A stretch of 64,000 bases of DNA, taken from positions 1 through 64,000 of the forward strand of contig CT868048.1 in NCBI GenBank assembly GCA_000165425.1, written 5' to 3'. Both the position numbers and the translations under genes were made by a program. How positions within the stretch are numbered: the stretch's first letter is position 1; each line of letters begins with the position of its first letter. Source of the stretch: Paramecium tetraurelia (taxonomy: Eukaryota). The notes under the pieces were generated by a model, which was not told the origin of the DNA, did not search any database, and saw only the letters and a list, made by a program, of their open reading frames with translations. Positions 1 through 53,079 of this stretch are shown piece by piece.

Positions 1-2111
1 TAGCAAACTCCAATTTAACATATAAATGAAAAATCATTAATCTTAGAACAATAACAATTTTAACAAGGCAAAGACATGTTTTTTTCACAAATCAACTCTA
101 ATGCAAAACCTCCTAGACCACAAAGAACCTACAATACAGAAAATAATTTCATAAAATTGACTTTATAAAACTCTGAAAATGAAAATTAAATAACAAATAT
201 CCAATATAATTAATAGAATTAAATTAAAGAGATTGTGAATAAGCTAAAAGAATAACATGGCAATCAAAATATCATTCTTCAATACGAAAATACTATCTTA
301 CAACCAGAATTAAGCTTATAACAATAAATAAGGGAAATAAGAAACAATATAACTCTCAAATATAAAATCGATTCATAAGAACTATAACCTCCAGCTTAAT
401 TAATTAATTCTAATTACACTGTGGCAACTATAACAAAATAATAGAGAAGCAAAGTCACTCTACAAAAATAATTAAGCAATGCTTTTAAAATTAAAACAGA
501 AGTTTTTCCTTCATAACAATTGGATTTCTAAGTTCCTGAAAATAATTTTGAGAATGGAGATAATAATTATTCATCATTGTAGAATTTCTTTTCTGGTCGA
601 AAAAGATTTTTGCAGACAGTAATTGAATAAAGTCCTGATAATCAACTAAGAAATAAATAGCCTTGTGAGGTTAACCAATTTAGAGTTAAGAGTTCTAAAC
701 CTGATAACTAATAATTAAATAACCTATAATAAAGACCAAGAGATAAAAGAATAGATTTGGTTAGACATATTTCAAATCCAAATCCAGGTCCAAATGTTCA
801 ATAACCTATGGAGAATATCCCAATAATAGTCGATTCATAAAGTATTAATTAAAATCAAAACGATATTTATTAAAATTAATTATATTATCAGGAAGAACAA
901 AAGCATAATAATTAACTTTAATAAATACTTGTAAATACTACTAAATACCTTTTTTTCAAGTGTTAAACCAACGATTGCAATTATTTTTGTATAGTGACCT
1001 ATTTTCATAATTAAAATTATTATTGCCAAAACTGTGACAAGTTAAGTGTTATAGTTGATTTTCATTTAAAAACCTTAACTTTTTAATGTTGTCACACTTT
1101 AAACTGTTTTGATATCATCAGAAAAGTGTAAAATGCTATATAAAATGAATAACTTGCTCGTTGTAGTGATTGTAAATAAGAGTTAGATTATAGACTGATT
1201 AAATGCTTCGATAAATCTAAATACTATATTAATATAAAATTAATAATTGATGCTTAACTTTTGAAGCGCTCAATATTGAAGAATACATAATTAAGAATTG
1301 CTGAATGCACAGGATCCGATTGTAATTTTTATACCATATGGGATTCTAATAAAAATTAAATACATTAAGGATTTTGTATTTCGTGTAACTAGAGAATTGC
1401 TTTTCGTATGGAAGTTAAGTTAAATTTTCTTAATAAGATTGATTGTGGACATGAACTATCAGCATAGTAATGATAGGATTAGCCTTGATGCATAGGGAGA
1501 GGGTTTTGCTTTTGTCATATNNNNNNNNNNNNNNNNNNNNNNNNNNNNNNNNNNNNNNNNNNNNNNNNNNNNNNNNNNNNNNNNNNNNNNNNNNNNNNNN
1601 NNNNNNNNNNNNNNNNNNNNNNNNNNNNNNNNNNNNNNNNNNNNNNNNNNNNNNNNNNNNNNNNNNNNNNGAAAGGACATGAACTATCAGCATAGAAATT
1701 AATAGGATATAGCCTCTGATGCATAAATTAGAAGGGATTTATGCAAAATGTCCATAATGCACAAGATTTTCATATCATTAAAGTTCTTTGAGTAATTTTG
1801 TTCTTAGGGAATGTAATACATATGATTACGTTTTCAAAAGTTAATTAGAAATCCTCAAATAGTAATTTGATGATAAGAGGGAGGTTGTTCTTTCTTAATG
1901 TAGTACCCTTGGATGTATTTGTGTTTATGCATATTAGGACAGAACTATCTGTGTTTCTAAAGAACAGGTTGTCTTTTCTCAATAATTTGGTTTGAATAAT
2001 TCAGAGATATTTAGTTTTTGTCCTTTATGCTTAAGATTTTCAAATTCTAATGAATGGAAATCAAGGACAAGATTACGAAGATAAGCAAATATACAATTTG
2101 GATATTCTTGA
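1..2111 (+). CDS. 5'-partial protein with a ubiquitin-like segment, a Q/N-rich linker and repeated RING-like (CxH...CxxC) / IBR-like (Cx4C...CxxC) zinc modules; spans an N gap
   Basis: Frame 1 is open in code 6 from base 1 to about 1470. It gives FIKLTLQNSENENQITNIQYNQQNQIKEIVNKLKEQHGNQNIILQYENTILQPELSL, then CQTNDCNYFC..YCQNC, CCHTL..ARCSDC, CTGSDCNFY..FCISC and IDCGHEL. After the gap it continues AKCPQC..CSTLGC..FCPLC to TGA at 2109-2111. The frame breaks only in low-quality sequence next to the gap. Confidence 0.7.
1521..1670. other. assembly gap (150 N)
   Basis: Run of N; the two flanks are imperfect copies of each other (GGACATGAACTATCAGCATAG on both sides). Confidence 0.95.
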
Positions 2112-2214
2112 TTATGTATGGGGTGTCATTGTATTAATAAATTATTTATGTCTATTACGAATCTAAATATATGGTAACTGGAGTAAGGCAGAAACATAAA
2201 TGAGATGAAATGAT

Positions 2215-2221
2215 AAAAAAA
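2215..2221 (-). terminator. RNA polymerase III oligo-T terminator of the 5S gene
   Basis: A7 on the + strand gives T7 immediately 3' of the 5S coding region. Confidence 0.85.
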
Positions 2222-2341
2222 GGGTTGTCAACACGAGGACTTCCCAAGCGGTCCCCCACCTTAGTACTAACCTCGCCTTAAGCCGCTTAACTTCGGAGTT
2301 CGAATGGGATCCGGTGCTTTAGGCTTAGTATGGCCGACAAC
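2222..2341 (-). rRNA. 5S ribosomal RNA
   Basis: The reverse complement reads GTTGTCGGCCATACTAAGCCTAAAGCACCGGATCCCATTCGAACTCCGAAGTTAAGCGGCTTAAGGCGAGGTTAGTACTAAGGTGGGGGACCGCTTGGGAAGTCCTCGTGTTGACAACCC (120 nt). It has the canonical eukaryotic 5S motifs and a terminal helix GTTGTC/GACAAC. Confidence 0.98.
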
Positions 2342-2361
2342 GATATTTACATCTCACATCT

Positions 2362-2370
2362 CTATTTATA
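2362..2370 (-). promoter_or_regulatory. TATA-like element about -21 to -29 upstream of the 5S gene
   Basis: TATAAATAG on the minus strand at the expected distance; the AT-rich background lowers specificity. Confidence 0.45.
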
Positions 2371-3498
2371 ATCCTTATAATTATTATTATTATTACTAAG
2401 ATAAAATTTAAATTAAGAAATAATATATAGAATTTATATTTAATCTGAGTTGTTATTTTACTTTAAAATAATGATATATTATAATTTAATTAAAATTATT
2501 GAAGAAAAAAATGTTGTTAAAATTATTTATTGATTCTTAAAGAGAAAGTGATTATGAAATTATTTAAAGATTACCATTCATAAAAAAGAGTAGAAATATA
2601 TTATTAATGAGTGTATATTTTATTATTAAAATAAATCTTTAATCTTGAGTATTTTAAGATTTTTAATTGCTCTCTTGAATTAAATCATTATATTTTGAAT
2701 AAATATAATGTATAAATTGATATGTATTATTTAATATAACCAACGATAATAAAGAATAAAGATAGACAAGAATCTTATTTTATAATCATAAATTTAAAAT
2801 TGTAATAAAAAATTCTTATTCTAACAAAACCAGAACAAGCTTTTTCATTAATATAATATATAAATTTATAAAATATATTTCAAAAGAGTATGGAGTATTG
2901 ATAAAGTCATATTAAAATGGATGATATAAGGATGGTATTACAAAAACATAAAAATTATAAAGCAATATCAATAATGGAGATTAGGGAAATTATGTAAATA
3001 AGTTTATTGACTTATAAATTGAAATTAGAATAATAGTTGAATAAATTAATACTTGTTATGTAGAATTAATAATTCATAAATTACACTAAATGTAAAACAT
3101 ACATAAAAAAGTAAATTTACAAGTTAACATCATAACAAGATTACTTATTAACATTAACATAGAGAACGAGAAATGATAGATTAAAACTTTATTTAAAGGT
3201 CAAATGAATGAAAGTGTGAACTTGAAAAATGCAAGGATTGCAATTTACAAAGAGATGACTGTTTACTTAATTAGTTAAAATAATGTCGTTTTTAGATTAT
3301 GTTATAATTATTAGACATTATGGGACTTTTATATTATTAATTAAAAGTATTCCTAATGGAATAATTTAGATAAACAAGTATTTCAAATCAAATAAGGATT
3401 AAATTTGATCATTAGATGATTAAGAAATCTCATTAATTATATATATCAGTTGTAAATCAAACTTATTAATTTAATTATAAATAATAAATAATTTTTAC

Positions 3499-3648
3499 NN
3501 NNNNNNNNNNNNNNNNNNNNNNNNNNNNNNNNNNNNNNNNNNNNNNNNNNNNNNNNNNNNNNNNNNNNNNNNNNNNNNNNNNNNNNNNNNNNNNNNNNNN
3601 NNNNNNNNNNNNNNNNNNNNNNNNNNNNNNNNNNNNNNNNNNNNNNNN
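3499..3648. other. assembly gap (150 N)
   Basis: Run of N; the flanks 3391-3462 and 3649-3720 are imperfect copies (AATAAGGAT..TTTGATCATTAGATGATTAAGAA). Confidence 0.95.
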
Positions 3649-3765
3649 AATAAGGATCATATTTGATCATTAGATGATTAAGAATTCTTCACCAATCATA
3701 TATATCAGTAGTAACTCACACCCCCCCTCCCCTTCCTCCATCACACACCATCTTACTTAATAGAA

Positions 3766-5680
3766 ATGATTAGGGTATTATCTCAAGATAAAATGATGAT
3801 CCCTCCATATCATTTAGATCAACCTTAACATTAGTCATAAAAAGGTTATAGAGTTTAATCGTCTGCTACAATTTTGGATCTATAGAATCATATTAAGAAA
3901 TATTTAGATGATGATTCTGAAATATAATTTTATTTTGAAAAAGATAAACTCTTTAGTGGAGTTCTAAATACTTATTTAATTAATATTATCAAAAATATAC
4001 CTGGTAGAACTATCTATTATAGAAAGGTTTCGTCACACAAAAATACTCACACTTAATCATATAAATCATCGAAATTTGAATATGAAAGTCAAAATAATGA
4101 TATCAAATAATCCAATCAAAATATTAGCACTCAATCACAAATCATATAAGGAGAATATTAATTAAATAAACCAGTAAACATACAAAATTAACAAGAATAA
4201 AATAGTCTTACAAAGATTTAACATTCTTAAAACAATTATATTAATAGGGGGGGGGTTAAAGCAGATGCTTAACCTATTTAATAAGCAAAACCACAGAGTA
4301 CAATAGATTCTAGAAATATATAATCAAATGTATTAGGAACCGAAAATCTAAGGTATTTTATTTATCTATATAGGTAATAAGTTTAATCTCAGATTTATTC
4401 AAATTTAACTCGATCATAATTATAAAATTAAGAGCTTTAATAGTTAAAATAAGAGAAATATTAAACAGATTAATAGAACTAGGAATTATAATCACAAGTT
4501 AATAAATTAAAGTAAAAAATAATATAATTTACTAGAACTAGATTACTAGACTATGAAGAGAGAATAAGGAATCAATAAACTGAAAATGAAAAGATAAGGT
4601 CAGATTTTAAAGATTAAAAGTAAAATTGTTAATTTAACTAATTTAGCTAATAAATTTAATACGATCTTTCTAAACTTAAAGATGATTATGAAAAATTAAA
4701 TTAAGAAAATGGAAAATTAAAAATTGAAAATCAAAAATTAAGCAATGAAAATGATACCTTATAAAAAAACCTTGGAGAAGCAAAGCTTAAACCTTAAACA
4801 TATATTGAAGTATAAAAAGATAATTCTAATAACCAACCAAAATTAAGGATTTAAGAAATAAGTCCGCTTGAACGAACAAAAGAATAAAATCCTCTCTAAA
4901 GTTCATAGATATACTAGTCTTAGTGCTATAATACAGGTATTTCAAATATCATTAATATAAGGTTATTAATAGAAAAGTTACAAAAATAAATGTGGCCATA
5001 ACATAGATATTTCTTAGATAGAAGCCTTACTAACTTAGGCACTTAAAAACAATTCAAAAGCATTATGCAAACAGTGCTAAAAACCGATCTAATCAAAGCT
5101 GTGCTTATTGACCGAATTTGGTAAACAGTATTTAGAAGCAAACAATTAAAAAGACCTTAAGCTAATTTTTTAAAATTTACAGAGAAAGTAGTTAAAATCT
5201 CAAGAAAAATTAGTAAAATGTTCAACTGTTAGTTGTCAATTCTTTTGCATTTGGTAGTAAAACTAAAATTTAAGGTTTCCGCAATAAAAAAATGGACTTT
5301 GCCTCTAATGTTTATCTAATTCTGTTATTGGCAATGAACTATAAGCGTCAACCCATTAAGACTTTTAAAATAATGCCTCATAATATGGATAATAGGAATA
5401 ATATAGATAATAGAAATAATTTGGATAATAGGAATAATATAGATAATAGCAATAATTTGGATAATAAGAATAATTTAGATAATAGCAATAATTTGGATAA
5501 TAGGAATAATATGGATTATAGCTATAATATGGATAATAGGAATAATTTAGATAATAGCAATAATTTGGATAATAGGGATAATTTAGATAATAGCAATAAT
5601 TTGGATAATAGGAATAATTTAGATAATAGCAATAATTTGGATAATAGGAATAATTTAGATAATATAGATAATATGGATGA
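3766..5680 (+). CDS. Ubiquitin-like + coiled-coil + one-zinc RING-like + IBR-like protein with a C-terminal Q(F/Y)(G/R)QQx repeat tail
   Basis: ATG at 3766 gives MIRVLSQD..YRVQSSATILDLQNHIKKYLDDDSEIQFYFEKDKLFSGVLNTYL. A frame-restoring 25-nt intron (4937-4961) is followed by YKNKCGHNIDISQIEALLTQALKNNSKALCKQC..VKCSTVSCQFFCIW..GLCLQCL. TGA at 5678-5680. Confidence 0.8.
5381..5677 (+). repeat. coding tandem repeat, 18-nt unit (36-nt higher-order period), 15 full units plus 3 half units
   Basis: The unit TAA T(T/A)T (G/A)GA TAA TAG (G/C)AA translates to alternating QFGQQE / QFRQQQ. Confidence 0.95.
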
Positions 5681-6041
5681 AAATTTATATAGTTATCATT
5701 CATAGATTTATCCAATTTTATTAAATTAGAGTATATATATATATAACTACTTCTTATTTAAAACATCTTTTTTTACACTTCTCTTTTTGTTTGATATATA
5801 GATTATTTTAATTGTAATTATTTAAAAAAAAGTGATGAATTAATGAGCTTTCCTACAAAAGTCAACATTTATAGATCACAATAAGAATATTATAGATGAG
5901 AATATTAAATAAATTTGTGTATGATTTTCTTCTATTATGGATCTTGGTTAAAATAATTATTAATCACTAAAATACATCAAATGCTACTATTTTGAAGATA
6001 TACAATTATATTTAGATTATAAATAAATAAACAATTATGAA

Positions 6042-8600: not shown

Positions 8601-8816
8601 TTTTAGTTAAATATAACTAATTATTTAAAAATATATTGTTTAGGATGGTTAAATTATTGGAATAAATTGAAGTAGCTGGTGAAAACGATGAGGAAGGAAT
8701 ATACGAATGTGGCGATTACATTTTGCAGAACATATCTGATATATAAATAAACGAAAAATAAAAATAGATCAATCATTCTATAAACTAAAAAATTGCAAAG
8801 AATATCATTTGGTACA

Positions 8817-9923: not shown

Positions 9924-9951
9924 TATAATTATTTAATTATTTAACCGTCAT

Positions 9952-14382: not shown

Positions 14383-17300
14383 ATGCGATGGATAAATTCA
14401 TTGATTATGTACCTTTACTTGAAATAATCATCAAAAGTGTAGAAACTAATTCAATAAAAGTCAGAGAGTAATTTGAAGAAAGTAATTTTTGGTATTTATG
14501 AGTTAAGATTGAACTTGTGAATGGTGAAGTAAAGGCTCTTACTGGTTATGGAAAATCTTATATAGGCAATAAGGTCTAATCATTTACTTTTAAGTAACAT
14601 ATTCTAGAAGTGTTATCCTTTCTCTGGAGATTCGAAATACTAATGATAATGGTCTACATCATTATCAGCTGGGCTCTTTAGGATGATGCAGCCAGGTAAT
14701 TAAAATTTGTATATTCGGAAGCAATTTAGTTCTTTTGTTTCAAAGCATAGTATTGCTATTGGATTATTGTCTGTTTGTAATAAAGTCTGTTCTAAAATTT
14801 CGTAATTTTAGAATAGTGGAATCACAATTGAATGAATAGAGATATAGCATATTGGAGAATTTTATTCATTCCAAAGAACCTTTGGCATCAGATTCTTCTG
14901 AAGATATAAACACTTATTTCTATCCATAAAAATAAGTATTGAGAGAATAGATAAAAGTTGGTGATATTGTTATCTTATAAAAAAAACATGAATGTCCTGC
15001 AGATGTATTACTATTGGAATCGAGTCATCAGGTTGTATAAATAGATTAGAATGAATTTGGTATTCAAACACCTAAAATAACAATTCCTTGTTAATCTACT
15101 TTTAGTAATTTAAATCGTTTATCTTTAGTATAACCAAAATCTGATACAAAAGGAGTATTGGTTGAGTTCAAATTAACTTTGAATGGACAGATCTAGTATT
15201 CCTATCAGCTTGGCAAGAAGTCAAGCTTGATGGGAACAATAAAATTAAAGAATGATCCAAAAGTGTTTAAATTCAATCAGGACAATATTATTTTTAGTGG
15301 GGAGAAGCTATTAAATACGGATTGGGCATTAGGAATAGTTTTGGTAGCAGGGAATAATTGTTTACGTATTTATAAACCAATCAAGCATAAACGATAAAAG
15401 TCATTCCTGTTTATTGGTCTCATAATCCTTGGGTACTTTATAAGTTTGGTATTTGATATGTTAATTGTAGCTTGCAAATCTAAGTTATAAATCAATTTAT
15501 GGAATCCACTTATGTTTCAATTCTATGTTACTTCCATTATATGCAATATTCTATAAGGAGTTCGTCTAGATCTTTCATTACATCAAGCAACCAAGTATTC
15601 AAAAGAAAGTCAAGCCCATGAATGCCATAGGATAAGGAAATAGCCAAGGGAAAGACAGTATATACATTATAAGTATTAAGTTGTTTAAGATGATAAACAC
15701 ATTTGGATTGAATTCAACAAGGTGAAGAATATGACTGAGATCTTTTCATAGGATAACCTGTCGAATTAGGAATAAATTAAAGACTTCTAGATTATGATGT
15801 AATAAACTAATGTAATCATTATTGTAAATTATTTCAGTATTGGAAATGCTCAAAAGTGAATTTGGTGTGTTTGGAATTGAATCAACAGTATTTTCATAAG
15901 AAGAGGAAGATCCAATCAATTTATATTGATGATAAACAATACATGTTCAAATACAAACAATTAGTAACAATTATGAATAGTAATTAAATTTAATTCGGAG
16001 ATAATTATTATAAAACCTTGTTAGACACAGGCAGAGAAAACGATATTTTTGATGAAGACAAGAAGGATTACAGTGAATTGATCAATTCCCATCCTTACTC
16101 GCCTCATAATTAAGAGGAAAGATAAAATTATGGTATGAGTACTAATTTGCAATTTTCACTCTCAAAGAAAACCATTGATGTGTCTTAATAGAAGAAACTA
16201 AAGAATTCCTTAGGGAAAACTATATCAATTAGAACTAGAATTGTAAAGAGTGGGAGTGACTAAAGCTCATCTATCAATTAATTATAGAAGCAATAATTGA
16301 ATGAATAGCAATTTATCACTTAATTGTTTGATGACTTCGACAATCAATATCACGAGAAAGTTGTTGCCTTATTGCTCTTATGTGAGATAGAGAATAAATA
16401 TAATGAATAAAAAAAGACTATAGAAACTTATTGTAAAAACCCATAGGATTATATTTTAATCGAGTTTTGCAATCTCTTAGAATACAAACTTAAATGTAGC
16501 ATTGAAACCGAACGTTAAATTTATGACATAGTTCTCAAAAGTTAACTCAAAATCATTGAAATTCAAGGCAAATTGAAATAATATAAGATCTTAAGTGAAA
16601 ATAAACAAACCAAGAATAGAGTTGGAGTTTATTCTGTGCTCTTAAAAGACCCAGAAGAATTCAATGAAGATGAAGGTGCTCTTCTATATATAAAAATTGA
16701 TACTTCACAAATGTATGAAAACACCAATATGAATATCAATGTGTTAGAAACTAATTCAACTCTATATTATATGTTGAAACGTGGTCAATAACCAACCTTG
16801 TATTTTAAGAAGTAACTCAAAAAGATAGAAGCTAAATAATTCTTGTTAAATAAGATGAATATTATGAATTCATACACCACAGACGAAGATTAATTAGAGT
16901 AATTGTATTTGCAATTGGAATCCTAGGCTGAATTGCTTATGATTATTGGAACTCATGCAAAAATAGATCAAAGTGCTCTTCTGACAATAGATGCATTCTC
17001 ATAAGCAAATGTATAATTATAATCAAAATGATCTTTAGCTAAATACGTGGTTAGTTTCAGCTGAAAATCAATTTGTGGTTCTGAGATTTTTGTTTGATGC
17101 AAAATTTATAGAAAGTGAAAATGAGCTATATTAATTCAGTTCTGGGGATGAGAGAACTTTGAAATTTGCTATTTAGAGCGCCTGCTCAAATCTGATAAAG
17201 TAATAAAGGTAAATGTGAGATTAAACTTAAGAATTTTTGAAGCACAAGACTTTGAAAAGAAGTATATTCTCCTGAGCTGTGAAGCCTTGCTGACTATAAT

Positions 17301-20300
17301 CAAAGATGAGTATCTCTTAAATCATTTTGCCATAATAGTTTAGTTCAGCAGGGGGCTGGCCTTATATGATAGTTTGGAGATCTCAAAGGTAAAATTATAT
17401 AAGATTGCCAAAAAACTCAATATGCAAATTGGATACATAGGAAGTTGTGTAAATAATCAAAGAGTCTATAATATGAGTTAAATATCAATTGATATCAACC
17501 CGAAATGCTACACTCAATCCAAGCCTTGTTATTTAGTAAATTCGTTAAGATGTGCAGAATAAATCCTAATACTCCAGTGTATCAGTTCGTCTTAGTTAGC
17601 CTAATCGATTCTTTACTTTTGGTTATACGAGATGATTCTATTTGTGCTCATTAACCTCATAAATTAAGGGTAATTCTTAACCTAAAGTTGCAACATCCTC
17701 CTTTTATTGAGTCAAACGTTTACAGTGATGATTTAATTACTATCTCATAATCAACGATTCAAGAATTCAGAAGTGCATTACAAAGGGTTAATACCCTAAA
17801 GATGCTTGGTTAAGGTTCTGTTTAATAAAGAGTCATTGATTAAGATATTTCTAGTAGGAGTAATTGATGCAGCAATAGTTAGTATACCATTATATGCTAC
17901 GAAATACTTATACGGAGACTCAAACTACTTACCCTTATCATAATTTGCCTTTATTATCACTCTAGAATTAATAGTCAAAATATAATTGTATTTCTAATTA
18001 TTCGAATAACAATATAAATAGCTTCTGGGATTATTATTATTGAGTGTATTCGTTGTTGCATTGGTGACATTTCTAACTATTCCCGATTATAATGAATATC
18101 ATGTATCTTACTCAGATTTGTTTTATAGCCCTGGATTTATAATAAGGAGTTTAATCTTTGTTTATATATTTGCATTTGTATTTAAATTTGCAGTAGCCTC
18201 TATTTTATAATTGTACAATTTGGAGATGTTCTAGGATCTTTTAATTACAGATGAATCAAATTTTAAAAATATTGAACAGACTAAGAAATAAAGATAAACT
18301 AAGCAGAGCTTATAATTATCTATTTAATCAAGAAAGAAATTTATTAAATCCATTTTGGCAGATAACAATCAGATGGATGACTCCATTTATAAGGCATTGA
18401 ATAATAACATTAATAATGATGAATAAATAGAATTAAAGAAAAATTTGACTTTCAACCAGAAGGAATTCGAGATAAGATATCAAGAGTCTATGAGTTAGAA
18501 TTCAATTTTGTATATCATCTTTGAGGCTGCTGTTTTCATCAATTTATTGATCTAAGTGAACTACATTGAGAATAATATAGCAATCTATATTATCTGGGGT
18601 GTGCAACTGTTCTACAGTATTACAATTCACATTCTATAATACTTGGAAATAACACCTCGTAAGATCTAATAAAACTTGCAATTGATCAGTATCTTAAGTA
18701 GATTTTTATTTTAATATATTACGATATTCTTATTGGATTAGGATTACATAATGAATCAAGTCATTTTCACGTCAATATTTATGATAATCCTCTTAAATTA
18801 TTCAATAAAGCAGAGTCTTAGATTTAAAGGTACAATAATCCTTATGAGTTTAATTAGTTTGGGGGTTGTTTTGAAGTTTATAACACCCAAATATTAATAC
18901 TCTCCATAGAAATAGATAATTTTTATTTTGGCTTTGATAATCATCTGTAGTTTATCGATTGTATGCGGCTATTTCTTATCTTATGTGAATGAGTATTTGA
19001 GGAGACAGAACTTTTTATTGCAAGAGTAATTGGAGAAGGAACAAAAGAAATTGAATGACGCCTTGAGTATATTGATGCCCAGATTTATTAAGGAGAGAAT
19101 GGCAAGAGGATATATATAAATACAAGAAGATCAAGGACCAGTCACAATCCTATTTTGCGAGATTTGCGACTTTGATGATATTATTGAATCTGAGAAGGTG
19201 TCAATCATAAGTTTTCTGGATTCTATCTATAGAACCTTCGATACAATTTGCAACCAGTATAACATCTAGAAAATTGAGACAGTAGGATAGATCTATGTTT
19301 GTGCATCAGGATTAAAAGACTATGATATAATTGATAAGCAATCAAAAAACTCAACATAGAAAATGATTGAATGTGCAATTGCCATGATGGAGTCAACTAA
19401 TAATTTAAAATATTAAGATAAACAGATAGTTATAAAGATTGGAATTAATTATGGGAATGTGATGGCTGGAGTCATTGGCCAACATAAACCATAATTCTCA
19501 TTGATAGGAGACACTGTCAATACAACCAGCAGAGCATGTACAGTATGTGAACCAGGCAAGATTTCATTGACTGAGACTGCCTTTATTAGAGTCAGACAAA
19601 TGAAGTACCAGTTCTAAGTTAAGGAGATCAATATGAAGAATATTTATGTTCTTTATTAACTGGTAATTAATAAGAAGAGCACCTTTGCAGCAAAGGTCGA
19701 CAAGTCACCAATCATTAAGTTGGTGAGTTCAATTTAATTTAAAAGATTGGACTCTAATGATAAGCCAATTAACAATGATCTTATGACAAATGCTGTTAAT
19801 CCTGCAGGGTTCTAATTTGATCTAGCAAGGAAATCATCAATGTCTAGGAATAAATCTGTTTACTAGTTACCTGTTGAGTAATTTGGGAAAGTGATATAAG
19901 ATGTAATCACAGCTAATAAGTTAATATGTAATTATTTAAAATCAAATAGTAGAGGATATATCTAATAGACGTATTACTATGCATAGAAAGAGTAGAGTCA
20001 CTAGATATAAGGAAGTGAATCCTTAAATGATGTCATCACATGATTAAGTTTAATAACCATAATAATAACAATAACAATAACAATAATAATAATAAAAGAC
20101 AGAAGATCCATTAGGAGATTAGTTTGGTGATCTCTTTGATAATATGAAGGTAGCTGATTCTTAAAAAAATGTTGATGATTTAATGCCAAAGAGCCCATAG
20201 AATAATGTTAAAAGCTAGAAATCAATATAAAATAATAATAACAACCATCTTTTTGATTCCACTCTCCAATAGGAAGAAAAAATTGAAATTCCAAAACTAC

Positions 20301-21677
20301 AATAATTAATTGGAAATCAAGAGAAAATTGAAACAGATATTATGTAGGAATTGATTAGAGTCAAATGTGACTTTGGTACGAATCAAGCGAGAAGAGGTAA
20401 ATAAATATGAATAAAATTTAGTATATTTTCGTCAATTCAAATACAAAGAGATGATACGAATTTATAATCATAAATTATTTAAGGATATGGTTTAGTATTG
20501 TTTAATTCTATTTATTTACTTGATGATATTTTAATTGCCCATTTTATTTGCTTTAATGGAATACAAACAATATTTAGGAGTCAATCTTACTATTGAAGGA
20601 TTGAAGATTGCATTCTATTTAATGAGTTGCATTGTTGTTCCATTTTGCTTAAGGGATGCTTATAAATATATATTCTAAATAGGGATGATCATAGGCTATT
20701 TCATTAGTATTTTATTCAACATAATAACAATTATAATTAACGACCCAATCGAAAGATCCTATATTACTCTAATCCTAGCTTTCACTTTATGTTTAGGATA
20801 CTATTTGAGAGCTTTACCCTATTTCACTTCTCGTCATAGAAAACTGCTATTCATTTTAAAATACTTTCACATAATTTTCATCTTATCTTTCGCCAACGAG
20901 TGGAATGAAACAATCATTTTTATTCTCGCCATGGAAATCTTTATATTTGTACAAAGAAATCAAAATGAAGATTTACTTTATTAGAATTACAATATTCACG
21001 ATCAACTCTTGTAACAATAACAAGAATAAAACAAAATAATCAGTCATCTTTTACCTTCTCATATTTTATAATAATATTTTAAAGAATAAGATACAATACC
21101 TGACGTATTTGAGAATGCAACAATCCTCTATGCAGATATAGCAGGCTTTACTAAATATTCTACTAGTGTTGATGCTTAATAAGTATTGTAAATGTTGAGT
21201 TCCCTCTTTAATAAGTTTGATGTTGCTTGCACAGAAAACAATGTTTATAAGTTGTATTCAATTGGAGATAGTTATGTTGTTATAGGAGTTTTAGATGCAA
21301 ACAATGGAATCAGAGAAGAAGAAGCTTATAATGTTGTCAATCTTGGCTTTTAACTACTTGATATAGTAAATTTACTTAAGAAAAATATTCAATATCCTGA
21401 TATCAATATGCGAATTGGAATACATACAGGGAATATAATTGGTGGGATAGTAGGAACAGATATTGTGAGATATGATATATATGGATCAGATGTGGCTATA
21501 GCCAAAAAAATGGAATAGAATTCATAAATTGGAAGAATCATGGTTTCTGAGGATACTATGAAATTTTTAGATGCCACTTACACAGGAGAATTTAGCTATG
21601 TATTTGCTAATCAGATTGAACATCGAAATAGAATTATTTAAGGTTATTATATAGACAAAGTATAAATTGAAGAATGA
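14383..21677 (+). CDS. Alveolate-type bifunctional protein: N-terminal P4-type ATPase-like domain + membrane guanylyl cyclase with two class III cyclase domains
   Basis: ATPase-like part: IKVGDIVILQKKHECPADVLLLESS and NIIFSGEKLLNTDWALGIVLVAG, with many TM segments. First cyclase domain: [60 protein letters not shown]. Second: ATILYADIAGFTKYS..VYKLYSIGDSYVV..MRIGIHTGNIIGGIVGTDIVRYDIYGSDV. About 8 tiny introns restore the frame; TGA at 21675-21677. The start codon is uncertain (alternative ATG near 14344). Confidence 0.92.
20051..20095 (+). repeat. poly-glutamine microsatellite (TAA/CAA) in the inter-cyclase linker
   Basis: TAA TAA CCA TAA TAA TAA CAA TAA CAA TAA CAA TAA TAA TAA TAA = QQPQ12 in the cyclase reading frame. 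Confidence 0.8.
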
Positions 21678-43946: not shown

Positions 43947-44038
43947 CATACTTTTATTATTATATAAATTTACATCATCAGGATTATAGAATACTTATCA
44001 AAAAAATTTCTTTATATGTCTAATTTAATTAATTAATA

Positions 44039-44645: not shown

Positions 44646-44802
44646 ATTCTTTGATTTAAAAGACTTATATATATATGTAAATTATAATTCAATAAAATTA
44701 TCAATAAAAAGTAAACAAACAACAATTTACAATCAAATTTCACTATACATATTACATTACAAGACCAATAGCTTCTTGCCATTCATAATGATATTTAACA
44801 AC

Positions 44803-45404: not shown

Positions 45405-45959
45405 ATTTATGAATTTATTTATTTATTTATCGTAAAATTATAAACTACGTAATTGTCTATTATTTATCTCAAATAAGAGTGATACTTCAATTCTTAAAGA
45501 TTACAAATAAAATGGTACTATTTTCGATATTAATTTGAATAAAACCTTTAAGTAAGTAATCTGATTAAAGTAGGTTTAATTACTTATTGATTAGCACAAT
45601 TGATTATTATATATTTTATCTATTATTTAAGTATAATCTTAATTGGTTAGAATCACTAAATTTAGAAAAATGTATTTAACATTGTTCTTTTATATATTAG
45701 ATACAAATATCTTGAAAATGAGAATGTAATTTATCATGATGATGACCTATTTTTTCTTTTAATTTAAATTAATTCTCAAAGGTTTTAGATTAATGGAAGA
45801 TTTGATTAAGAAATAGAAGACTAAAATGATGCTTTAATTATTTAATTGAATCAAATTATTTTTTATGTGATGGAATAACATAGTACTCAATCTAAAGGTA
45901 GAATATCATTAAAATTACATAATTTAAATTTTAATTAACTTTATTAAATTAATCGTCAT

Positions 45960-47050: not shown

Positions 47051-47531
47051 AATGATTTAAATAAGACAAGAATCTCTAATTAAATAAAAATATATAGACA
47101 AAATTTTAATATTATTCTTATAGGATGTATTTCTAAAATATTTTGTTAAGTCTATAGCTTTAAGTATTCAACACCATCTAAATACTTACAGACTATCATC
47201 ATTGGTTAATACTTTTAATTTATGTGAAAATTATGAAGTAAATAACTTAAATTATAAAAAGGGATCAATGGAATGTATTAAAATTATGTTATGAAAAGAG
47301 AGTAATATTAATGTTACTCTTTTTTAAATTTGAAAATTTATATAGCCAATAAATTTATTAAGATTATTCTTTAACTGTCTACCTGATGAGTTTGTATCAT
47401 TATTCCAAGAAATCTCTAATATATCAAAAATGGAAATATTTAATTTATTGAGAGTGCTAAAAATAATTTTGTTAGTAGGCAATCAACTTTAGATAAGTGT
47501 TGAAAGAAATCAATGTTTAAAAATTAATGAA

Positions 47532-47954
47532 TCATGGGAATTTATTTTTCTTTTATTGCAAAAATCGAAATACTGAAAATCCTAAATTCTCGCTCTAGCT
47601 TCTTATTCTAATATTCTTAAGTTTATTATTTATATACATGTTCTTTTAATGCTCTTTAGCATGATATGTTATTTAGAGCTTTGGGCTTCTCATCATTCTC
47701 AGATTCCTCAAAAATGACATCGTCAGGAGAATAAACAGTCAATTTCTATTATTAAATTTTAGGACCTTTATGTCCTTCTAAAATTAATGGTTCGAGTAAT
47801 TAAGGAGTTTCTTTGGGTCTTAAATTAATAATGGTTTGGCAGAATACCTAATTTAAGGTTTAGGAGGAGGTTTATCATAAGTATCCAAGTATTCTTAGTA
47901 AGTCATAGATGAGTGATATCGCTATCTTATTTCTTAAGCGTAAAGATTATCCAT
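47532..47954 (-). CDS. small hypothetical protein
   Basis: MDNLYAQEIRQRYHSSMTYQEYLDTYDKPPPKPQ; inferred introns of 29 and 22 nt; ends KKNKFP*. Confidence 0.55.
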
Positions 47955-49496
47955 AATTTTAAATATAAATAATAAAATCTAAATAACATTCATAATTTAT
48001 TTATTACATCAGATGATATCAATTCAACTTCATCTAAAGCTTAATAAATTAAAAACAATTGAATAGATTATAATTTGAAGGCCACTTTCAGTCTAAATAA
48101 TAAAAACATTTCTTAATCATAATTATTTTTCTTTGGATTAAAAGTGTAGACTATCAAATGCTTTGCAAAACCTAAACATTATAATGCAGCGTTTGTTAGC
48201 AGTAAACTGGGTCAAGTACTACTGTTATGGAACATAAAATAAAATTTATTGTAATTCTAAATAATTTATTCTAAATATAAATAAATTACAAGTACAAACT
48301 GTTGCCTATTCACCTTATGAATATCATTGATATTAATAATATTATGTATACATTTAATTTACTCAGATTCTGTAACCTAATTGATGCTCAACAGTTCTTA
48401 TATTTAATTAATATTAATGTATAGAATCAATTCCTGATTTTATAGTTTTATAAGTTATACTATTTATGTGTAATTATTTAATCTAAAAGTGCTTATTATT
48501 CTCTTATATGAAAAGTATAGGAAAGGGCTACTCCAATAGCAGGTTTAATGTCTTCTACTATTAGATTATTATCCATTATTGAAGTGCAGCAATGAAATTA
48601 TATATTTTCTAGTCAATTAATTCCAGTTTATATCGAACCAAATAAATTTTTGTTAACATAACTCATTGAATAATTATATCAAATAATTCTCATCTAAATA
48701 TTTTATAACAACATTATTTTTATTATTATTTCATTGATACAATTGTACAATATTTTTGTTTGAGTCATATCTACTCAGCTTTGTTAGGTTAAATTTAATT
48801 ATTACTATATTAGATAAATTATCCTGCCATTAGATAATATGGTGAATAATCTTAAATTAACAAAAGTCTTAAAGTAGAACGATTCAATCATAAAAGAATA
48901 CTAAAAATAGAATTGTATAGAATTTAATAATATTGTAGTTTGTGTCATTAGAGTTGTAATTATAAATATAAATTTGCTTTTTTAATAATTTCGAATTAAA
49001 AATAAATCAATGTGTACTTATATAATTGTTCCTTTGTTCTTTTTTTGACTTAATTCTAAATTAATAAATAAATAAAAGTGCAAGAAATTTTATATTAGAG
49101 TATTTTATTATAAATGGATCTACTGCAAGAATTTTGGTATTTAGATTGAAATTTATAGATAATTATGCAATAATATGTATAATTTTCTCATTTCCAATAA
49201 TTTTAAACAATTTTTTTCATGTTCTTATATTCAAAATAGTAATAAATATTAATGAATTTTATTAATTAGAATTTTAAGTTGGGTTATATAAATTCTATAT
49301 AGTTTTGTTTTGTTTTGGAACTTAGAATGTACGAAGTTGAACAACATACATAAAGCACAGAATTGAGTCCGAGGATGGTTTTCTCTCACATAATATTACC
49401 AATAATAGTATGGATATTACATCTGATAATAGATGGATGAACAAATAAAAATAAATTTAAGTTTGGTTTAGAGGCAATTATAAATAATTTTCATAA

Positions 49497-49920
49497 TCAA
49501 TTCAAGCTTTTTTTATTCGAATACTAAACTTCAGTACTTAAACTATTCTATTTTTTTTGTTTCTCTTCATCTTTGTTTTATCCAATAGTTTTAAGTCTTC
49601 CTTATTGACTAAGAAAACGATCAACTTTATTCAAAGAAGAAATAATTGATTGATCGCTGTTCTAACAATGTAAGAGATAATTTTATATTTTGACTTCAGG
49701 TATGGGTTTCTAAATAAATAAGTAAAAACATTACATATGAATTATTCCATTCTTCATTGTCATCAATATTTAGTAAACGCGCTTGTATTTTCATAATATT
49801 GCTATTATCATGCGCCAATTCAAATTATGGCATTCCAAGCATTTTTCTTAATTCTAGAAAACCTTTCTTAGAAATTGTATTCTCCAATCTATATCCTTTT
49901 TGTTTGTGAGCCTTTCCCAT
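49497..49920 (-). CDS. small hypothetical protein
   Basis: MGKAHKQKGYRLENTISKKGFLELRKMLG; one 25-nt intron; 133 codons. Confidence 0.65.
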
Positions 49921-50553
49921 TAAATAATATTTGATGTAAATAAAATATTGTTAATTAACTTATGTATTCTACTTATATAGACAGCAAAAAACCGAAGAAC
50001 TGTTAAGGTCTAAGTAAAATATTAAATAAAAAATATAAATTCAATATCTAATAACAATTCGAACTATCTATTTAATGGTAAATATATTAAATTCTTTAAA
50101 ATTGAGGAGTGTTGACTTTATTTTTAATAACCAATTATTCTCCAAAAATTAAAAAATTAAAGCATTTATCTTAGAATAAGGTTCAATTTAGTCCAAATAT
50201 ATGGCATCTTGCTAACAATTCGATTATTGTGAAAATGGGGAAATGAAAATAGAATATTTTGGATTAATATCAACAAATAATAATTTTATTTATTAAAAAT
50301 TTAAATAGAGAATAGACCAGACTAGAAGATTAAAAGGAATTCAATAAGTACCTTTATTACTATTGTAAATAGACATATATTAATATTCGAGAATATATTT
50401 TTACATTTTATTTCTGGAACTATCAAAGCAATACATAAAATAGTTAGTATACGTAATTATTCTAAACTCCAATATCCAATTGCTTATATTAGAAATTAAT
50501 AATTTAGAATTGAAATATAAGTATCTGATATATTAAATAATAAGTATTTTAAA

Positions 50554-51724
50554 TCATTAAAGCCATTCATCTAAAGCTACCTCCTTGACTGAAGGTCGCT
50601 CATTTTAGTTAGTATTCAAGATTTTTTTGATTAAACTTTTTAATTGGATAGACATAGTTTAAGGATAATCTATCTTTCCATTATTTATTGATTTATATAA
50701 ATCTTTGTCATCGTTTCCTCGAAATGGAAATTGTCCTGTGGTCATTTTGAAAAGCAATATCCCCAAAGCCCAAACATCAGCAGGGAAACTATAGGTTGAT
50801 TTATTAACTATTTCAGGTGCCATATATGATGGAGTACCACAAAATATGTTAAGTTTACTGGAAGGGTCAATAGCTATTGAAAATCTAGTGTAAGGAATAA
50901 GTATTATTTTACCCAAAATCAATAATTTTAATTTTGTTATTCAATGGATCAATAAGAATATTCTCCAATTTAAGATCTCTATGCACTACACTTTTGTGAT
51001 GGCAGTATTTTAAGGCATCTACAAGTTAGATGAAGATGTATTTGGCTTAATCTTCATCAAGTTTCTTTTGGGGTTGCTATTTAATGAAAGAATTTAAAGA
51101 AGTTGCACTGTAATATTCCATAATGACATGCAATTGTACTTGGGTTTCACAGGCTCCAACCAATTTGATGATGTTGAGATGTCTTAATTTAGATAATATC
51201 TTCACTTCTCTACAAACATTCTTACGTTTTTGTTAATCATTAATTTTAACCTTTTCATATGTTTTAATAGCACAAAACATTGATCCTTTTTATGCCAATC
51301 TTACAATGGCATAGGAACCTAATCCAAGTACTTTGGATAAGGTGTAATTTTCAATTGACTTTTCAAGTAAATGGTCAGGCAATACACCTTGTAAGATTCC
51401 TTGTTCGATAAAGTTTTCTGTTTGCATTTTGACATTCTCACTTACAACTCTTATTTCTCTTGGTTTTGTTTCAGGGGTTTAAAATCTTGGACTTTGCTTT
51501 TTGGAAGTACCGTGGTACTCAATTGGAGCATTGACTTTAACAGGACTTTTTGCTAATGGAGAGACAGACCTTTTTCCATTAGATTTATTTAACTCATGGA
51601 TTATGTTTTGAAGCTCGGCGATTCTATTTTTGGCTTATTTAATATTATCAATATTAGAGGTGTAATCTTTGAGAGGAGGTCTATTCTCAAATTGGAAATT
51701 AGGACTGCAATAGTTTACGTTCAT
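50554..51724 (-). CDS. Ser/Thr protein kinase, CAMK group (AMPK/MARK-like)
   Basis: [31 protein letters not shown] (intron inside), [20 protein letters not shown]. Confidence 0.95.
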
Positions 51725-51820
51725 TAACAGATAGTTATTATTAATTTTTATTTATTAATTCTTAATTAAAATTGCAAATATATATAGATATACCGCTTGT
51801 GATATAAAATTAATTTTATT

Positions 51821-53079
51821 TCAAAATGTAATAATATTGGGCACTTCTTTAGGATTATTAACTGACCTTATTAAGCAGTTAGGGCAATAACTATAATCAC
51901 TATCGTCATAATGATTTGCAGTTTAATAAAAACAAAAAAAATTACAGCTTGGATTTTCACAGGAAACTACACTAAGATGTGATTTTTAAAGTGGCTTATA
52001 ATTATTGTACATTTAAGATAATTCTAAAGTGGATTTTATCTTTAAGTAATTTTCACCAATCATGCCAATATCCTAACAAATAGTGGCGGAAAAATTAGAA
52101 TTGCAAGTTTCGCATTTTACAATTTAATTATTCTTCACAGCTTGAATTAATAAACTTTCTAATTTGTTCTTTTCTATCATATGTCCACATTTATTTTTAT
52201 ACATTTCAGCGGAATCATTAAATGACAATAAAGCTATTTCATGTTTTTTTGGTTAGAAATTAATTAGTTCTTGTTAATTTTCCTCTTGTCCTTAATACTT
52301 TTAATCAGAGACATCGTTAATTTATATTTTGTTATGAGCTCTAAAATTTTGGGTCCCATTCTCAATTTTAAGTTCTTCTATTTAAGTTTTTAAATTCTAC
52401 ATCTCCTTTTCTTAAAGTTGGGCGTTCATTTATAATTGGGCCAATTAATCTTTTAACTCAAAGTTCTATTGATTTAAATTTTAGATGATTTTCATATTCT
52501 TTGAATTCTAATCTTATAAGTCAGTTAATTAGATTTTATTTCCCTATAAAGTCATTGACATTTCTACTTCTTTTTCTTTTAACACATCAGTTAATTCTTT
52601 GATTTTGGATTATAATTATTAAACTAATTGGTCTTGATTTCTAATTAGAATAAATATCATTACTTTTAATAATCGCCATTATTTTTTACAGTTGATTCAT
52701 CTCTATTGTACAAGGTTCCCGATTATGACTGGGATGAAGATCCTTAAATAGATTAGGAAGTAGTCGAATGTTAAATTCCTGAATTTGTTAACTATTTTTA
52801 ATTTTCTTAAAAATCGCTCATAGATGAGGATTGCTATTATGTTTTTGAGACCTCAAAATTGTAATATATTGAAGATGCTCTAATGTGTTAATACAAAAAA
52901 CAATTTAAGTTTCCTTTGAAAAGTTAATTTTCGGTAAAATAGAAATAAACCTTCTCTTGATCACTCTTTTTAGTTAAATATTGATGTAAATCTACAATAA
53001 GTGTATTATTGTTATAAGTATAACTATCTGAAACGTGTGGGTTTGACAAATTTATGAGGTTTATGTGAAGTTGACTCAT
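51821..53079 (-). CDS. Ubiquitin-like + coiled-coil + one-zinc RING-like + IBR-like protein (paralogue of 3766..5680)
   Basis: MSQLHINLINL..YTYNNNTLIVDLHQYLTKKSDQEKVYFYFTENQLFKGNLNCFL..IYY; 23-nt intron; YKNKCGHMIEKNKLESLLIQAVKNNQIVKCETC..VVSCENPSCNFFCFY..YCPNCL; 412 codons. Confidence 0.85.

What the first reader, a model, noticed from the sequence alone, without database searches (positions are those of the whole stretch)
1..53079. Three-member family: ubiquitin-like domain + coiled coil + one-zinc RING-like + half-IBR ('truncated Parkin/RBR-like' architecture)
Seen: genes 3766..5680(+) and 51821..53079(-), about 46 kb apart, align by eye. The N-terminal domains match (TILDLQNHIKK..IQFYFEKDKLFSGVLNTYL..IYY vs TLIVDLHQYLTK..VYFYFTENQLFKGNLNCFL..IYY). 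So do the C-terminal modules (YKNKCGH-I----E-LL-QA-KNN----CxxC ... G--YL ... Cx4CxFFC ... CxxCL). Gene 1..2111 carries the same modules. Established: in a cross-brace RING, ligands 3,4,7,8 (CxH + last CxxC) form the second Zn site; SP-RING SUMO ligases keep only this site; RBR ligases place an IBR (Cx4C...CxxC) after RING1 and need a RING2 catalytic Cys. Inference: this is a ciliate-expanded family of Ubl-bearing, E2-binding ligases or adaptors lacking Zn site 1, the second IBR site and RING2. It may be a lineage-specific ubiquitin/SUMO system; I do not recognise it as a named family.
Basis: partly seen in the sequence, partly recalled or inferred. Interest (0 to 1): 0.78.

Follow-up and report, generated by a model that had tools for sequence, protein, structure and literature searches.

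The report
Paramecium Ubl plus half-RBR-like zinc family
Three genes in this Paramecium window belong to an unnamed, Paramecium-only protein family that joins a ubiquitin-like fold and a coiled coil to a cut-down RING-type zinc module, so it looks like a lineage-specific relative of ubiquitin/SUMO ligases whose activity is still untested.

Summary
The window is Paramecium tetraurelia macronuclear DNA. Genes A (3766-5680, +) and B (53079-51821, -) match in the C-terminal Cys module (34% over 117 aa, E 1e-17). They also match in the N-terminal domain (32% over 59 aa, E 8e-7). Gene C (1-2111) shares only the Cys module (E 3e-8). Its supposed Ubl is not supported, and the gene is cut, gapped and frame-broken.

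AlphaFold models support the proposed folds. The N-terminus is a beta-grasp. The first half of the Cys module best matches RBR RING1 plus its linker helix, at modest scores (Z 5-7). By sequence profile, the closest solved protein is the NSE2 SP-RING (E 2.4e-4). The IBR-like half is only weakly tested. No member has a RING2.

No Pfam model reaches its threshold. An exhaustive profile search of 1.84 billion proteins found 24 relatives. All 22 whose source I saw are unnamed proteins of the Paramecium aurelia complex, falling into about eight clades.

Verdict: a real, undescribed, lineage-specific variant of RING-type ligase architecture. E2 binding and activity are untested. Interest is moderate.

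The parts
3766..4936 (+). Gene A exon 1 (390 codons + 1 nt): Ubl, Q/N-rich linker, coiled coil
   Evidence: Open frame under code 6. P. octaurelia ortholog P0010 aligns from 3766.
4937..4961 (+). Gene A intron, 25 nt (GT..AG), shifts the frame by +1
   Evidence: Read from the sequence. It is needed to join the two open frames. This is consistent with P0010.
4962..5680 (+). Gene A exon 2 with stop: Cys module and Q-rich repeat tail
3787..4029 (+). Gene A N-terminal beta-grasp (ubiquitin-like) domain, about residues 8-88
   Evidence: AF2 model, pLDDT 78.4. Foldseek and VIA matches are all beta-grasp.
4426..4791 (+). Gene A coiled-coil region, residues 221-342
   Evidence: Heptad score is above all 200 shuffles. 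Weak Pfam leucine-zipper and coiled-coil hits.
4991..5077 (+). Gene A one-zinc RING-like site, CGH-x22-CxxC
5219..5311 (+). Gene A zinc ribbon, Cx4C...CxxC (like the first half of an IBR)
5380..5678 (+). 36-nt tandem repeat (8.3 copies) coding the Q-rich tail of gene A
   Evidence: The tail is absent from ortholog P0010.
52664..53079 (-). Gene B exon 1: Ubl and S/Q-rich linker
   Evidence: P0006 residues 1-157 align here (E 1.4e-30). The deposited model P0005 starts later, at a downstream Met, and lacks the Ubl.
52641..52663 (-). Gene B intron, 23 nt (GTA..TAG)
   Evidence: The splice reproduces the P0005 sequence.
51821..52640 (-). Gene B exon 2 with stop: coiled coil and Cys module
52855..53067 (-). 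Gene B N-terminal Ubl-like domain, about residues 5-75
   Evidence: BLASTP to the gene A domain. Aligned with the family. It was not modelled itself.
52103..52189 (-). Gene B one-zinc RING-like site, CGH-x22-CxxC
   Evidence: Modelled. Matches RBR RING1 and the NSE2 SP-RING.
51875..51961 (-). Gene B zinc ribbon, Cx4C...CxxC
   Evidence: Modelled as four short strands with pLDDT 70-92.
1..1473 (+). Gene C, 5'-cut open frame: one partial module (about 844-1053), one full module (about 1072-1398) and the start of a third (CGH at 1444-1452)
   Evidence: 66% identical to P0009 residues 63-544.
1521..1670 (.). 150-N run inside gene C, flanked by near-duplicate sequence
1683..2111 (+). Gene C 3' part with the last zinc ribbon (1899-2030). 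Frames change in about 1700-1830 relative to P0009.

Best explanation
**What it is (shown).** Genes A and B, and in a tandem-module form gene C, belong to an unnamed multigene family. I found it only in species of the Paramecium aurelia complex. A and B encode, in order:
1. An N-terminal beta-grasp (ubiquitin-like) domain.
2. A low-complexity linker.
3. A heptad coiled coil.
4. A C-terminal module with two predicted zinc sites.

The first zinc site is a RING variant that keeps only the CxH and last CxxC ligands, that is, the second zinc site of a cross-brace RING. A long helix follows, then a zinc ribbon with the ligand pattern of the first half of an IBR. There is no RING2 or catalytic domain.

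**How it most likely works (inferred).**
- The coiled coil dimerises the protein.
- The reduced RING docks an E2 of the ubiquitin or SUMO pathway, as SP-RING and U-box domains do without a first zinc site.
- The protein would then act as a RING-type ligase that forms no thioester intermediate of its own, or as an E2-holding adaptor or regulator.
- The Ubl would serve as a docking or regulatory surface.

The family most likely arose from the RING1-IBR part of an RBR ligase, or from an SP-RING. The evidence does not decide between these.
For: - **Paralogy:**
- **Ligand conservation:** eight ligands conserved in 22 sequences.
- **Ubl fold:** AF2 pLDDT 78.4. Foldseek's listed hits are beta-grasp domains, best GABARAP at E 2.3e-3, probability 1.00. 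In the VIA second look, 964 of 995 chains reach Z>=5 and 74 reach Z>=8. The top matches are USP7 Ubl (Z 9.3), Atg12 (Z 9.1, rmsd 2.5 over 79 residues) and Get5 Ubl (Z 8.9). One relative, P0032, is named 'Ubiquitin-like domain-containing protein' by UniRef.
- **RING-like part:** AF2 pLDDT 86.6. Foldseek ranks 1-9 are all RBR ligases, best RNF216 at E 4.2e-3. In VIA, model residues 1-73 align to RNF216 (Z 7.0), ARIH2 (5.9) and HOIP (5.8). The unbiased search of 48,161 chains again puts ARIH2 first, and 10 of the top 16 are RBR by their titles.
- **Sequence profile against the PDB:** NSE2 SP-RING at E 2.4e-4, and 5.9e-3 for the domain alone.
- **Coiled coil:**
- **No RING2:** the module lies at or near the C-terminus in all 24 relatives.
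- **Conservation:** about eight clades with good support, most holding more than one aurelia species, so the family has been kept for a long time.
Against: - No structural match reaches Foldseek E<=0.001.
- The Z scores of 5-7 for the RING-like part are 'middling' by the tool's own note. An unrelated helical protein (SpoIIID, Z 5.6) ranks among them.
- No Pfam RING, IBR, MIZ or ubiquitin model reaches its threshold in any of the pieces or the 22 members scanned.
- A profile of the C-type proteins finds nothing in the PDB at E<=1.
- The Pro after ligand 7 (CPxC), which by my recollection contacts the E2 in many RINGs, is present in only a few members.
- The first-site loops that contribute to E2 binding in RINGs are missing.
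- Zinc binding, dimerisation, E2 binding and any catalytic activity are all untested.
- The zinc-ribbon half was never searched as a separate model.
Confidence: 0.55

Rival explanations
1. The family is a set of divergent SP-RING (Nse2/Mms21-like) SUMO E3 ligases. In this reading a coiled coil is followed by a one-zinc SP-RING that binds Ubc9, the extra zinc ribbon is a lineage-specific addition, and there is no RBR ancestry.
For: - The best sequence-level match in the PDB is human NSE2: E 2.4e-4 for the whole chain and E 5.9e-3 for the isolated SP-RING domain 2yu4. The alignment covers the stretch from NK-CGH to the second Cys pair of the site.
- Pfam zf-Nse is among the three most frequent weak hits, in 4 of 22 members and in gene B at E 0.026.
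- The ligand pattern CxH...CxxC with no first zinc site is the SP-RING pattern. NSE2 also places a helical coiled region before its SP-RING. Both points are recalled.
- SUMO conjugation is required for DNA elimination in Paramecium, as cited in passages of PMC10830130.
Against: - All these scores are below the curated thresholds (14.8 bits against a cutoff of 27).
- The best-ranked structural neighbours are RBR RING1 domains with their linker helix.
- The downstream Cx4C...CxxC ribbon and the weak Pfam IBR hits fit an RBR origin better.
- About eight paralogous clades, with a Ubl attached, are unlike the Nse2 I recall as a single-copy subunit of the Smc5/6 complex.
Confidence: 0.2
2. The proteins are non-catalytic scaffolds or pseudo-ligases. 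The zinc sites are purely structural, no E2 is bound, and the Ubl and coiled coil serve assembly or localisation in some Paramecium-specific structure.
For: - Half of the RING ligands and the whole catalytic RING2 are lost.
- The CPxC proline is mostly absent.
- The family is restricted to one genus and evolves fast: 28-34% identity between paralogs.
- The proteins have long coiled coils and low-complexity tails that vary between orthologs.
- No ubiquitin-pathway gene was found among the 76 ORFs of at least 170 aa that I scanned.
Against: - The eight ligands and several flanking residues (the [YF]xNKCGH and FFC motifs, and SVxNP in many members) are conserved across about eight clades. This points to a specific conserved interaction surface.
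- SP-RING and U-box domains show that a first zinc site is not needed for E2 binding (recalled).
Confidence: 0.25
3. These are ordinary RBR ligases whose RING2, and the missing ligands, were lost only through wrong gene models or sequence errors.
For: - Gene C does show frame breaks and a gap.
- The deposited model of gene B is N-terminally truncated.
Against: - A and B end at in-frame TGA stops 12-16 residues after the last CxxC (B), or after a Q-rich repeat (A).
- The next genes are a kinase starting about 100 nt away (B) and a PI3/PI4-kinase gene on the other strand (A).
- Independently annotated relatives from five species all end at the same point.
- The missing ligand positions are occupied by conserved non-Cys residues in uninterrupted exons.
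Confidence: 0.02

Closest known systems
RBR (RING1-IBR-RING2) E3 ubiquitin ligases, especially those with an N-terminal Ubl (Parkin, HOIL-1)
   Same: - Domain order: a Ubl, then a RING1-like domain, a long helix, and an IBR-like zinc ribbon.
- The best-ranked structural neighbours of the modelled module are RNF216, ARIH2, HOIP, HOIL-1 and Parkin, over RING1 plus the linker helix.
- There are weak Pfam IBR hits.
   Different: - Only 4 of the 8 RING1 ligands are kept.
- Only the first 4 IBR ligands are kept.
- There is no RING2 or catalytic Cys domain at all.
- A coiled coil sits between the Ubl and the zinc module.
- No significant sequence similarity to RBRs was found.
SP-RING SUMO E3 ligases (NSE2/Mms21; Siz/PIAS; Tetrahymena Ema2)
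   Same: - A single zinc site built from CxH...CxxC, with no first site.
- The best sequence-profile match in the PDB is the NSE2 SP-RING.
- Helical or coiled region upstream, as in NSE2 (recalled).
- An atypical SP-RING E3 (Ema2) is known in a ciliate (passages of PMC10830130).
   Different: - Scores are below the Pfam thresholds.
- This family adds an N-terminal Ubl and a C-terminal zinc ribbon.
- It is a multigene family restricted to Paramecium.
Ubiquitin-like (beta-grasp) domains of non-conjugated proteins (USP7 and USP4 Ubls, Get5 Ubl, Atg12, Atg8)
   Same: The predicted fold, with Z up to 9.3 and TM about 0.6.
   Different: - No Pfam ubiquitin-family hit at E<=1 in A or B.
- The domain is at the N-terminus and runs on into the protein, so it is not a conjugatable modifier.

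Membership tests
RBR E3 ligase | RING1 with eight Cys/His ligands (C3HC4, two zinc sites) | tested here: not met
   Only C-x-H and the last C-x2-C are conserved. There is no upstream CxxC in A or B, and no CxxC after the His (alignments).
RBR E3 ligase | Complete IBR (C6HC, two zinc sites) | tested here: not met
   Only Cx4C...CxxC is present, and the proteins end or turn low-complexity within about 10-20 residues. The best Pfam IBR score is 20.5 bits, against a cutoff of 24.3.
RBR E3 ligase | RING2 (Rcat) with a catalytic cysteine | tested here: not met
   No sequence follows the module in B. Only a Q-rich repeat follows in A. None of the 24 relatives has a further domain.
RBR E3 ligase | Fold of RING1 plus the RING1-IBR helix | tested here: inconclusive
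   RBRs are the best-ranked matches (RNF216 Z 7.0, ARIH2 5.9, HOIP 5.8). The Z values are middling, and Foldseek's best E is 4.2e-3.
SP-RING (Siz/PIAS/Nse2) SUMO E3 | Single zinc site from CxH...CxxC, without the first RING site | tested here: met
   The ligand pattern is invariant or nearly so in 22 sequences. Zinc binding itself was not measured.
SP-RING (Siz/PIAS/Nse2) SUMO E3 | Significant match to the zf-MIZ or zf-Nse models, or to solved SP-RINGs | tested here: inconclusive
   - zf-Nse matches 4 of 22 members; the best E in that scan is 0.032, and it is 0.026 (14.8 bits, cutoff 27) for the longer gene B piece.
- The family profile matches PDB NSE2 at E 2.4e-4 and 5.9e-3.
- No SP-RING is listed among the top 50 structural rows.
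SP-RING (Siz/PIAS/Nse2) SUMO E3 | Binds Ubc9 and stimulates SUMO transfer | not testable with these tools
   This needs biochemistry.
Ubiquitin-like beta-grasp domain | Beta-grasp fold (a mixed sheet packed on one helix) | tested here: met
   Predicted model only. In VIA, 964 of 995 chains reach Z>=5, with USP7 Ubl at 9.3 and Atg12 at 9.1 on top. Foldseek's listed hits are beta-grasp domains.
Ubiquitin-like beta-grasp domain | Match to the Pfam ubiquitin-family models | tested here: not met
   No such hit at E<=1 for A or B. APG12 matches 1 of 22 members at E 0.038. UniRef names one relative a Ubl-domain protein.
Ubiquitin-like beta-grasp domain (in gene C) | Same N-terminal domain as in A and B | tested here: not met
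   - Best BLASTP E is 1.7.
- hhalign probability is 0.8%.
- The region is deleted in P0015 and shortened in ortholog P0009.
- It was not modelled.

The most novel reading that the evidence does not exclude
The family is a new kind of ubiquitin/SUMO-pathway component: a dimeric 'E2 clamp'. A RING reduced to its second zinc site, together with the RING1-IBR-type helix and ribbon, would hold a charged E2. The protein's own N-terminal Ubl would occupy the E2 backside or the allosteric ubiquitin site that RBRs use. This would give a self-activating or self-inhibiting ligase module that works without RING2, and would be a Paramecium-specific conjugation branch.
Probability: 0.1. Interest if true: 0.7.

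Novelty: new variant of a known kind. Interest (0 to 1): 0.42.

Why it matters
If these proteins bind an E2, they would show how far a RING/RBR scaffold can be cut down and still work: one zinc site, half an IBR and no RING2. They would also add a genus-specific branch to the ubiquitin or SUMO system of an organism in which SUMO conjugation is needed for programmed DNA elimination. If they do not bind an E2, they are an example of a ligase module turned into a structural domain.

In practical terms, the family has no Pfam model and no name. At least one deposited gene model (gene B) lacks its Ubl. The alignments made here could seed a family definition and corrected annotation.

Tried and rejected
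- **Whole-genome search:** no genome is held for this window.
- **Word-based homolog search:** it found only 2 proteins and 4 proteins. The family census therefore rests on the exhaustive profile search. That search used a three-sequence profile over 50%-identity representatives. Per-species counts and more distant relatives (other Paramecium species, other ciliates) may have been missed.
- **Three-sequence profile against PDB sequences:** only two chance-level hits, coronavirus PLpro at E about 0.09.
- **C-type profile against the PDB:** nothing at E<=1.
- **Complex prediction, Ubl against C-terminal module of ortholog P0006:** no verdict, score 0.00, controls not run. This says nothing for or against an intramolecular contact.
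- **SP-RING structures:** none appears in the top 50 rows of either VIA search. This absence does not exclude them.
- **The protein-atlas search** did not take the code-6 protein. So there is no language-model neighbour list, no expression evidence and no read-level check of the introns.
- **Literature:** four full-text searches listed no paper describing this family. I saw listings only, plus passages of PMC10830130. ParameciumDB expression tables and papers' supplements were not consulted.
- **Truncated canonical RBR:** considered and rejected; see the rival explanations.
- **Chance similarity:** rejected on the E-values.

Full report
**Source and gene models.** The window has about 26% G+C and long open frames only when TAA and TAG are read as Gln. 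A search with the C-terminal part of gene B returned a 100% identical 'unnamed protein product (macronuclear) [Paramecium tetraurelia]' (P0005) and a 78% identical P. octaurelia protein (P0006).
- Gene A is 3766-4936, then a 25-nt intron (4937-4961), then 4962-5680. It encodes 629 aa.
- Gene B is 53079-52664, then a 23-nt intron (52663-52641), then 52640-51821. It encodes 411 aa.
- The B splice reproduces P0005 exactly. P0005 starts at a downstream Met and lacks the first 85 residues. The ortholog P0006 (412 aa) has them, and aligns to 53079-52618 at E 1.4e-30.

- The C-terminal modules share 40/117 residues (E 1e-17). The N-terminal domains share 19/59 (E 8e-7).
- Gene C (1-2111) shares the Cys module with A (32/116, E 3e-8) and marginally with B (E 0.002).
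- An HMM of the module finds one partial and two full copies in gene C's relatives, and the corresponding copies in the window's gene C up to the gap.
- Gene C's N-terminal region does not match the A/B domain (best E 1.7; hhalign probability 0.8%). That region is deleted in relative P0015 and shortened in ortholog P0009.
- Gene C is also imperfect. It is cut by the window start, since P0009 residues 63-544 align to 1-1467. It is broken by 150 N (1521-1670) whose flanks are near-duplicates. It needs frame changes in about 1700-1830 relative to P0009. I cannot tell a pseudogene from poor sequence next to a gap.
- tblastn with ten relatives hits only these three loci in the window.

**Family size and range.**
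- A profile of the three window modules (A1) was scored against 1.84 billion representative proteins. It found 24 with E<=1e-3, 20 with E<=1e-10 and 5 with E<=1e-30.
- Of these 24, 20 were looked up. All are 'unnamed' or 'uncharacterized' proteins of the aurelia complex: P. sonneborni 9, P. octaurelia 4, P. primaurelia 4, P. pentaurelia 2 and P. tetraurelia 1. Two more are P0005 and P0006. One is the window's own gene C translation, and one (P0027, 79 aa) was not looked up.
- No canonical RBR or other named ligase reached E<=1e-3.
- A maximum-likelihood tree of 29 module sequences resolves about eight well-supported clades. Most hold more than one aurelia species, and A, B and C fall in three different clades. 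The family therefore predates the aurelia radiation and is not a three-member family.
- In P. octaurelia, the orthologs of C and A and a further member (P0020) carry accession numbers two apart on one contig. The B ortholog is reported on a contig of the same length (648,795 bases). This suggests a conserved cluster.

**Domains.**
- Pfam gives nothing above threshold for the six window pieces or for 22 family sequences scanned singly. The recurrent weak hits are zf-Nse (4/22), IBR (4/22), a C4 zinc ribbon (4/22) and zf-RING_4 (2/22). Gene C's module reaches IBR at E 5.2e-4 (20.5 bits, cutoff 24.3).
- In the 22-sequence alignment the Cx4C...CxxC cysteines are invariant. C-x-H, the first CxxC, an aromatic residue and a fifth Cys (the FFC motif) are at least 90% conserved.
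- Heptad periodicity marks residues 221-342 of A (above all 200 shuffles) and, more weakly, two stretches in B. The coiled-coil part of the family profile also draws many coiled-coil proteins from the PDB.

**Predicted structures.**
- *N-terminus of A.* The first 100 residues, modelled with an 18-row alignment, give pLDDT 78.4. Foldseek finds nothing at E<=1e-3, but the matches it lists are beta-grasp domains at E 2-11e-3 with probability about 1.00 (GABARAP/Atg8, USP4/11/15 Ubl, Atg12, BAG6 and ubiquilin Ubls, SUMO-3). In the VIA second look, 964 of 995 chains reach Z>=5 and 74 reach Z>=8. The top matches are USP7 Ubl at 9.3, Atg12 at 9.1 (rmsd 2.5 over 79 of 88 residues) and Get5 Ubl at 8.9. 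UniRef independently names one relative (P0032) a ubiquitin-like-domain protein. I take the beta-grasp as established at the level of prediction.
- *C-terminal module of B.* The 132 residues, modelled with a 22-row alignment, give pLDDT 86.6. The model is a short hairpin, a helix, a second short helix, a 26-residue helix and four short strands. Foldseek's best nine hits are all RBR ligases (RNF216 at E 4.2e-3, then Parkin and HOIL-1), but none reaches E<=1e-3. VIA aligns model residues 1-73 to RING1 plus the RING1-IBR helix of RNF216 (Z 7.0, rmsd 2.9, 71 residues), ARIH2 (5.9), HOIP (5.8), 1wim (5.6; recalled to be the RNF144A RING1) and Parkin residues 243-329 (about 4.5).
- *Unbiased search.* The search of 48,161 chains gives the same order. 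Ten of the top 16 are RBRs by title, but the unrelated SpoIIID scores Z 5.6 among them, and only 4 chains reach Z>=5. By the tool's own note these Z values are middling. The consistency of the family hit carries the argument, not the scores.
- *Zinc-ribbon half.* It was covered only by three collinear alignments of high rmsd, to ARIH2, HOIL-1 and ARIH1 (107-108 residues, rmsd 6.9-9.2). It could not be modelled separately.

**A second affinity.** The 22-sequence family profile searched against PDB sequences puts human NSE2, an SP-RING SUMO ligase, first (E 2.4e-4). The isolated NSE2 SP-RING domain (2yu4) comes fourth (E 5.9e-3). The alignment covers the stretch from NK-CGH to the second Cys pair of the site and runs on into the following helix. 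The other hits are coiled-coil proteins. This is the same signal as the weak Pfam zf-Nse hits, not independent of them. So the one-zinc RING variant looks like an SP-RING by sequence and like RBR RING1 by predicted structure. I lean to an RBR origin because of the helix and the IBR-like ribbon that follow, but this is not shown.

**What is absent.** There is no RING2.
- B stops 12-16 residues after the last CxxC, and a protein-kinase gene starts about 100 nt further on.
- A continues only into a Q-rich tail coded by a 36-nt tandem repeat, which the P. octaurelia ortholog lacks.
- In all 24 relatives the module lies at or near the C-terminus.
- Neither A nor B has a CxxC pair upstream of CGH. 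Gene C has a CxxC 17 residues upstream, belonging to the preceding ribbon, but still lacks ligands 5 and 6.

**Mechanism (inferred).** The architecture suggests the following.
1. The protein dimerises through the coiled coil.
2. It presents two reduced RING modules.
3. Each module docks an E2.

By recollection, SP-RING and U-box domains bind E2s without a first zinc site, and the RING1-IBR region of RBRs holds the E2-linked and allosteric ubiquitins. Without RING2 the protein cannot use the RBR thioester mechanism. It would have to act as a simple RING-type activator, an E2 holder or a regulator. The Ubl could dock on ubiquitin receptors, on the E2 backside or on the module itself. My one test of the last idea gave no verdict.

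Arguments against E2 binding are the loss of the first-site loops and the rarity of the CPxC proline. The neighbourhood gives no help. Among the 76 ORFs of at least 170 aa that I scanned there are kinases, cyclases, CRAL/TRIO, MORN, TTL, AAA, GRAM/VASt, WD40 and ankyrin genes, but no ubiquitin-pathway gene.

**Comparison and novelty.** The family fails the defining features of RBR ligases: full RING1, full IBR and RING2. It reaches no curated threshold for SP-RING or ubiquitin families. It is therefore not a member of any of them, but a new variant within the RING-type ligase world.

I found no paper on it in four full-text searches (listings only). Passages of PMC10830130 show that an atypical SP-RING ligase, Ema2, works in Tetrahymena DNA elimination, and that SUMO conjugation is required for DNA elimination in Paramecium. 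That makes the SUMO reading worth testing.

**Verdict.** Interest is moderate at 0.42: an uncharacterised, conserved, genus-specific ligase-like architecture, which is not in itself surprising for a ciliate.

Noticed in passing
window 2223-2341 (-): A complete 5S rRNA gene (Rfam RF00001, 113 bits, E 3.9e-24) lies between genes C and A. No tRNA genes were found in the window.
   Followed up: yes
window 1521-1670 and 3499-3648: There are two runs of exactly 150 N. Each is flanked by near-duplicate sequence; for example, GGACATGAACTATCAGCATAG occurs on both sides of the first. They look like scaffold gaps with overlapping, error-prone contig ends, or like masked stretches.
   Followed up: partly
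window 5380-5678 (+): A 36-nt tandem repeat (8.3 copies, 92% matches) codes the QQFGQQEQFRQQ-type tail of gene A. The P. octaurelia ortholog P0010 has no such tail.
   Followed up: partly
window 52824-53079 (-): The deposited P. tetraurelia protein for gene B (P0005, 325 aa) starts at an internal Met and omits the conserved Ubl-coding region, which the P. octaurelia model P0006 includes.
   Followed up: yes
relatives P0022, P0024, P0025, P0032: One clade of the family starts with MGxxxS (MGGGQS, MGAGSP, MGGASS). This looks like an N-myristoylation signal and hints at membrane attachment for that clade. The motif is recalled and was not tested.
   Followed up: no
window 14687-21674 (+): Long open frames hold two adenylate/guanylate cyclase catalytic domains (E 1.4e-38 and 6.9e-40). 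They probably belong to one large multi-exon cyclase gene.
   Followed up: no
window 50870-51820 (-): A Ser/Thr protein-kinase gene (Pkinase, E 1.1e-38) starts about 100 nt downstream of gene B's stop codon, in the same frame.
   Followed up: no
P. octaurelia and P. sonneborni relatives (P0020/P0009/P0010; P0028/P0016/P0014): Accession numbers of family members are consecutive or nearly so on one contig. A further member therefore probably lies just upstream of gene C, outside this window.
   Followed up: no
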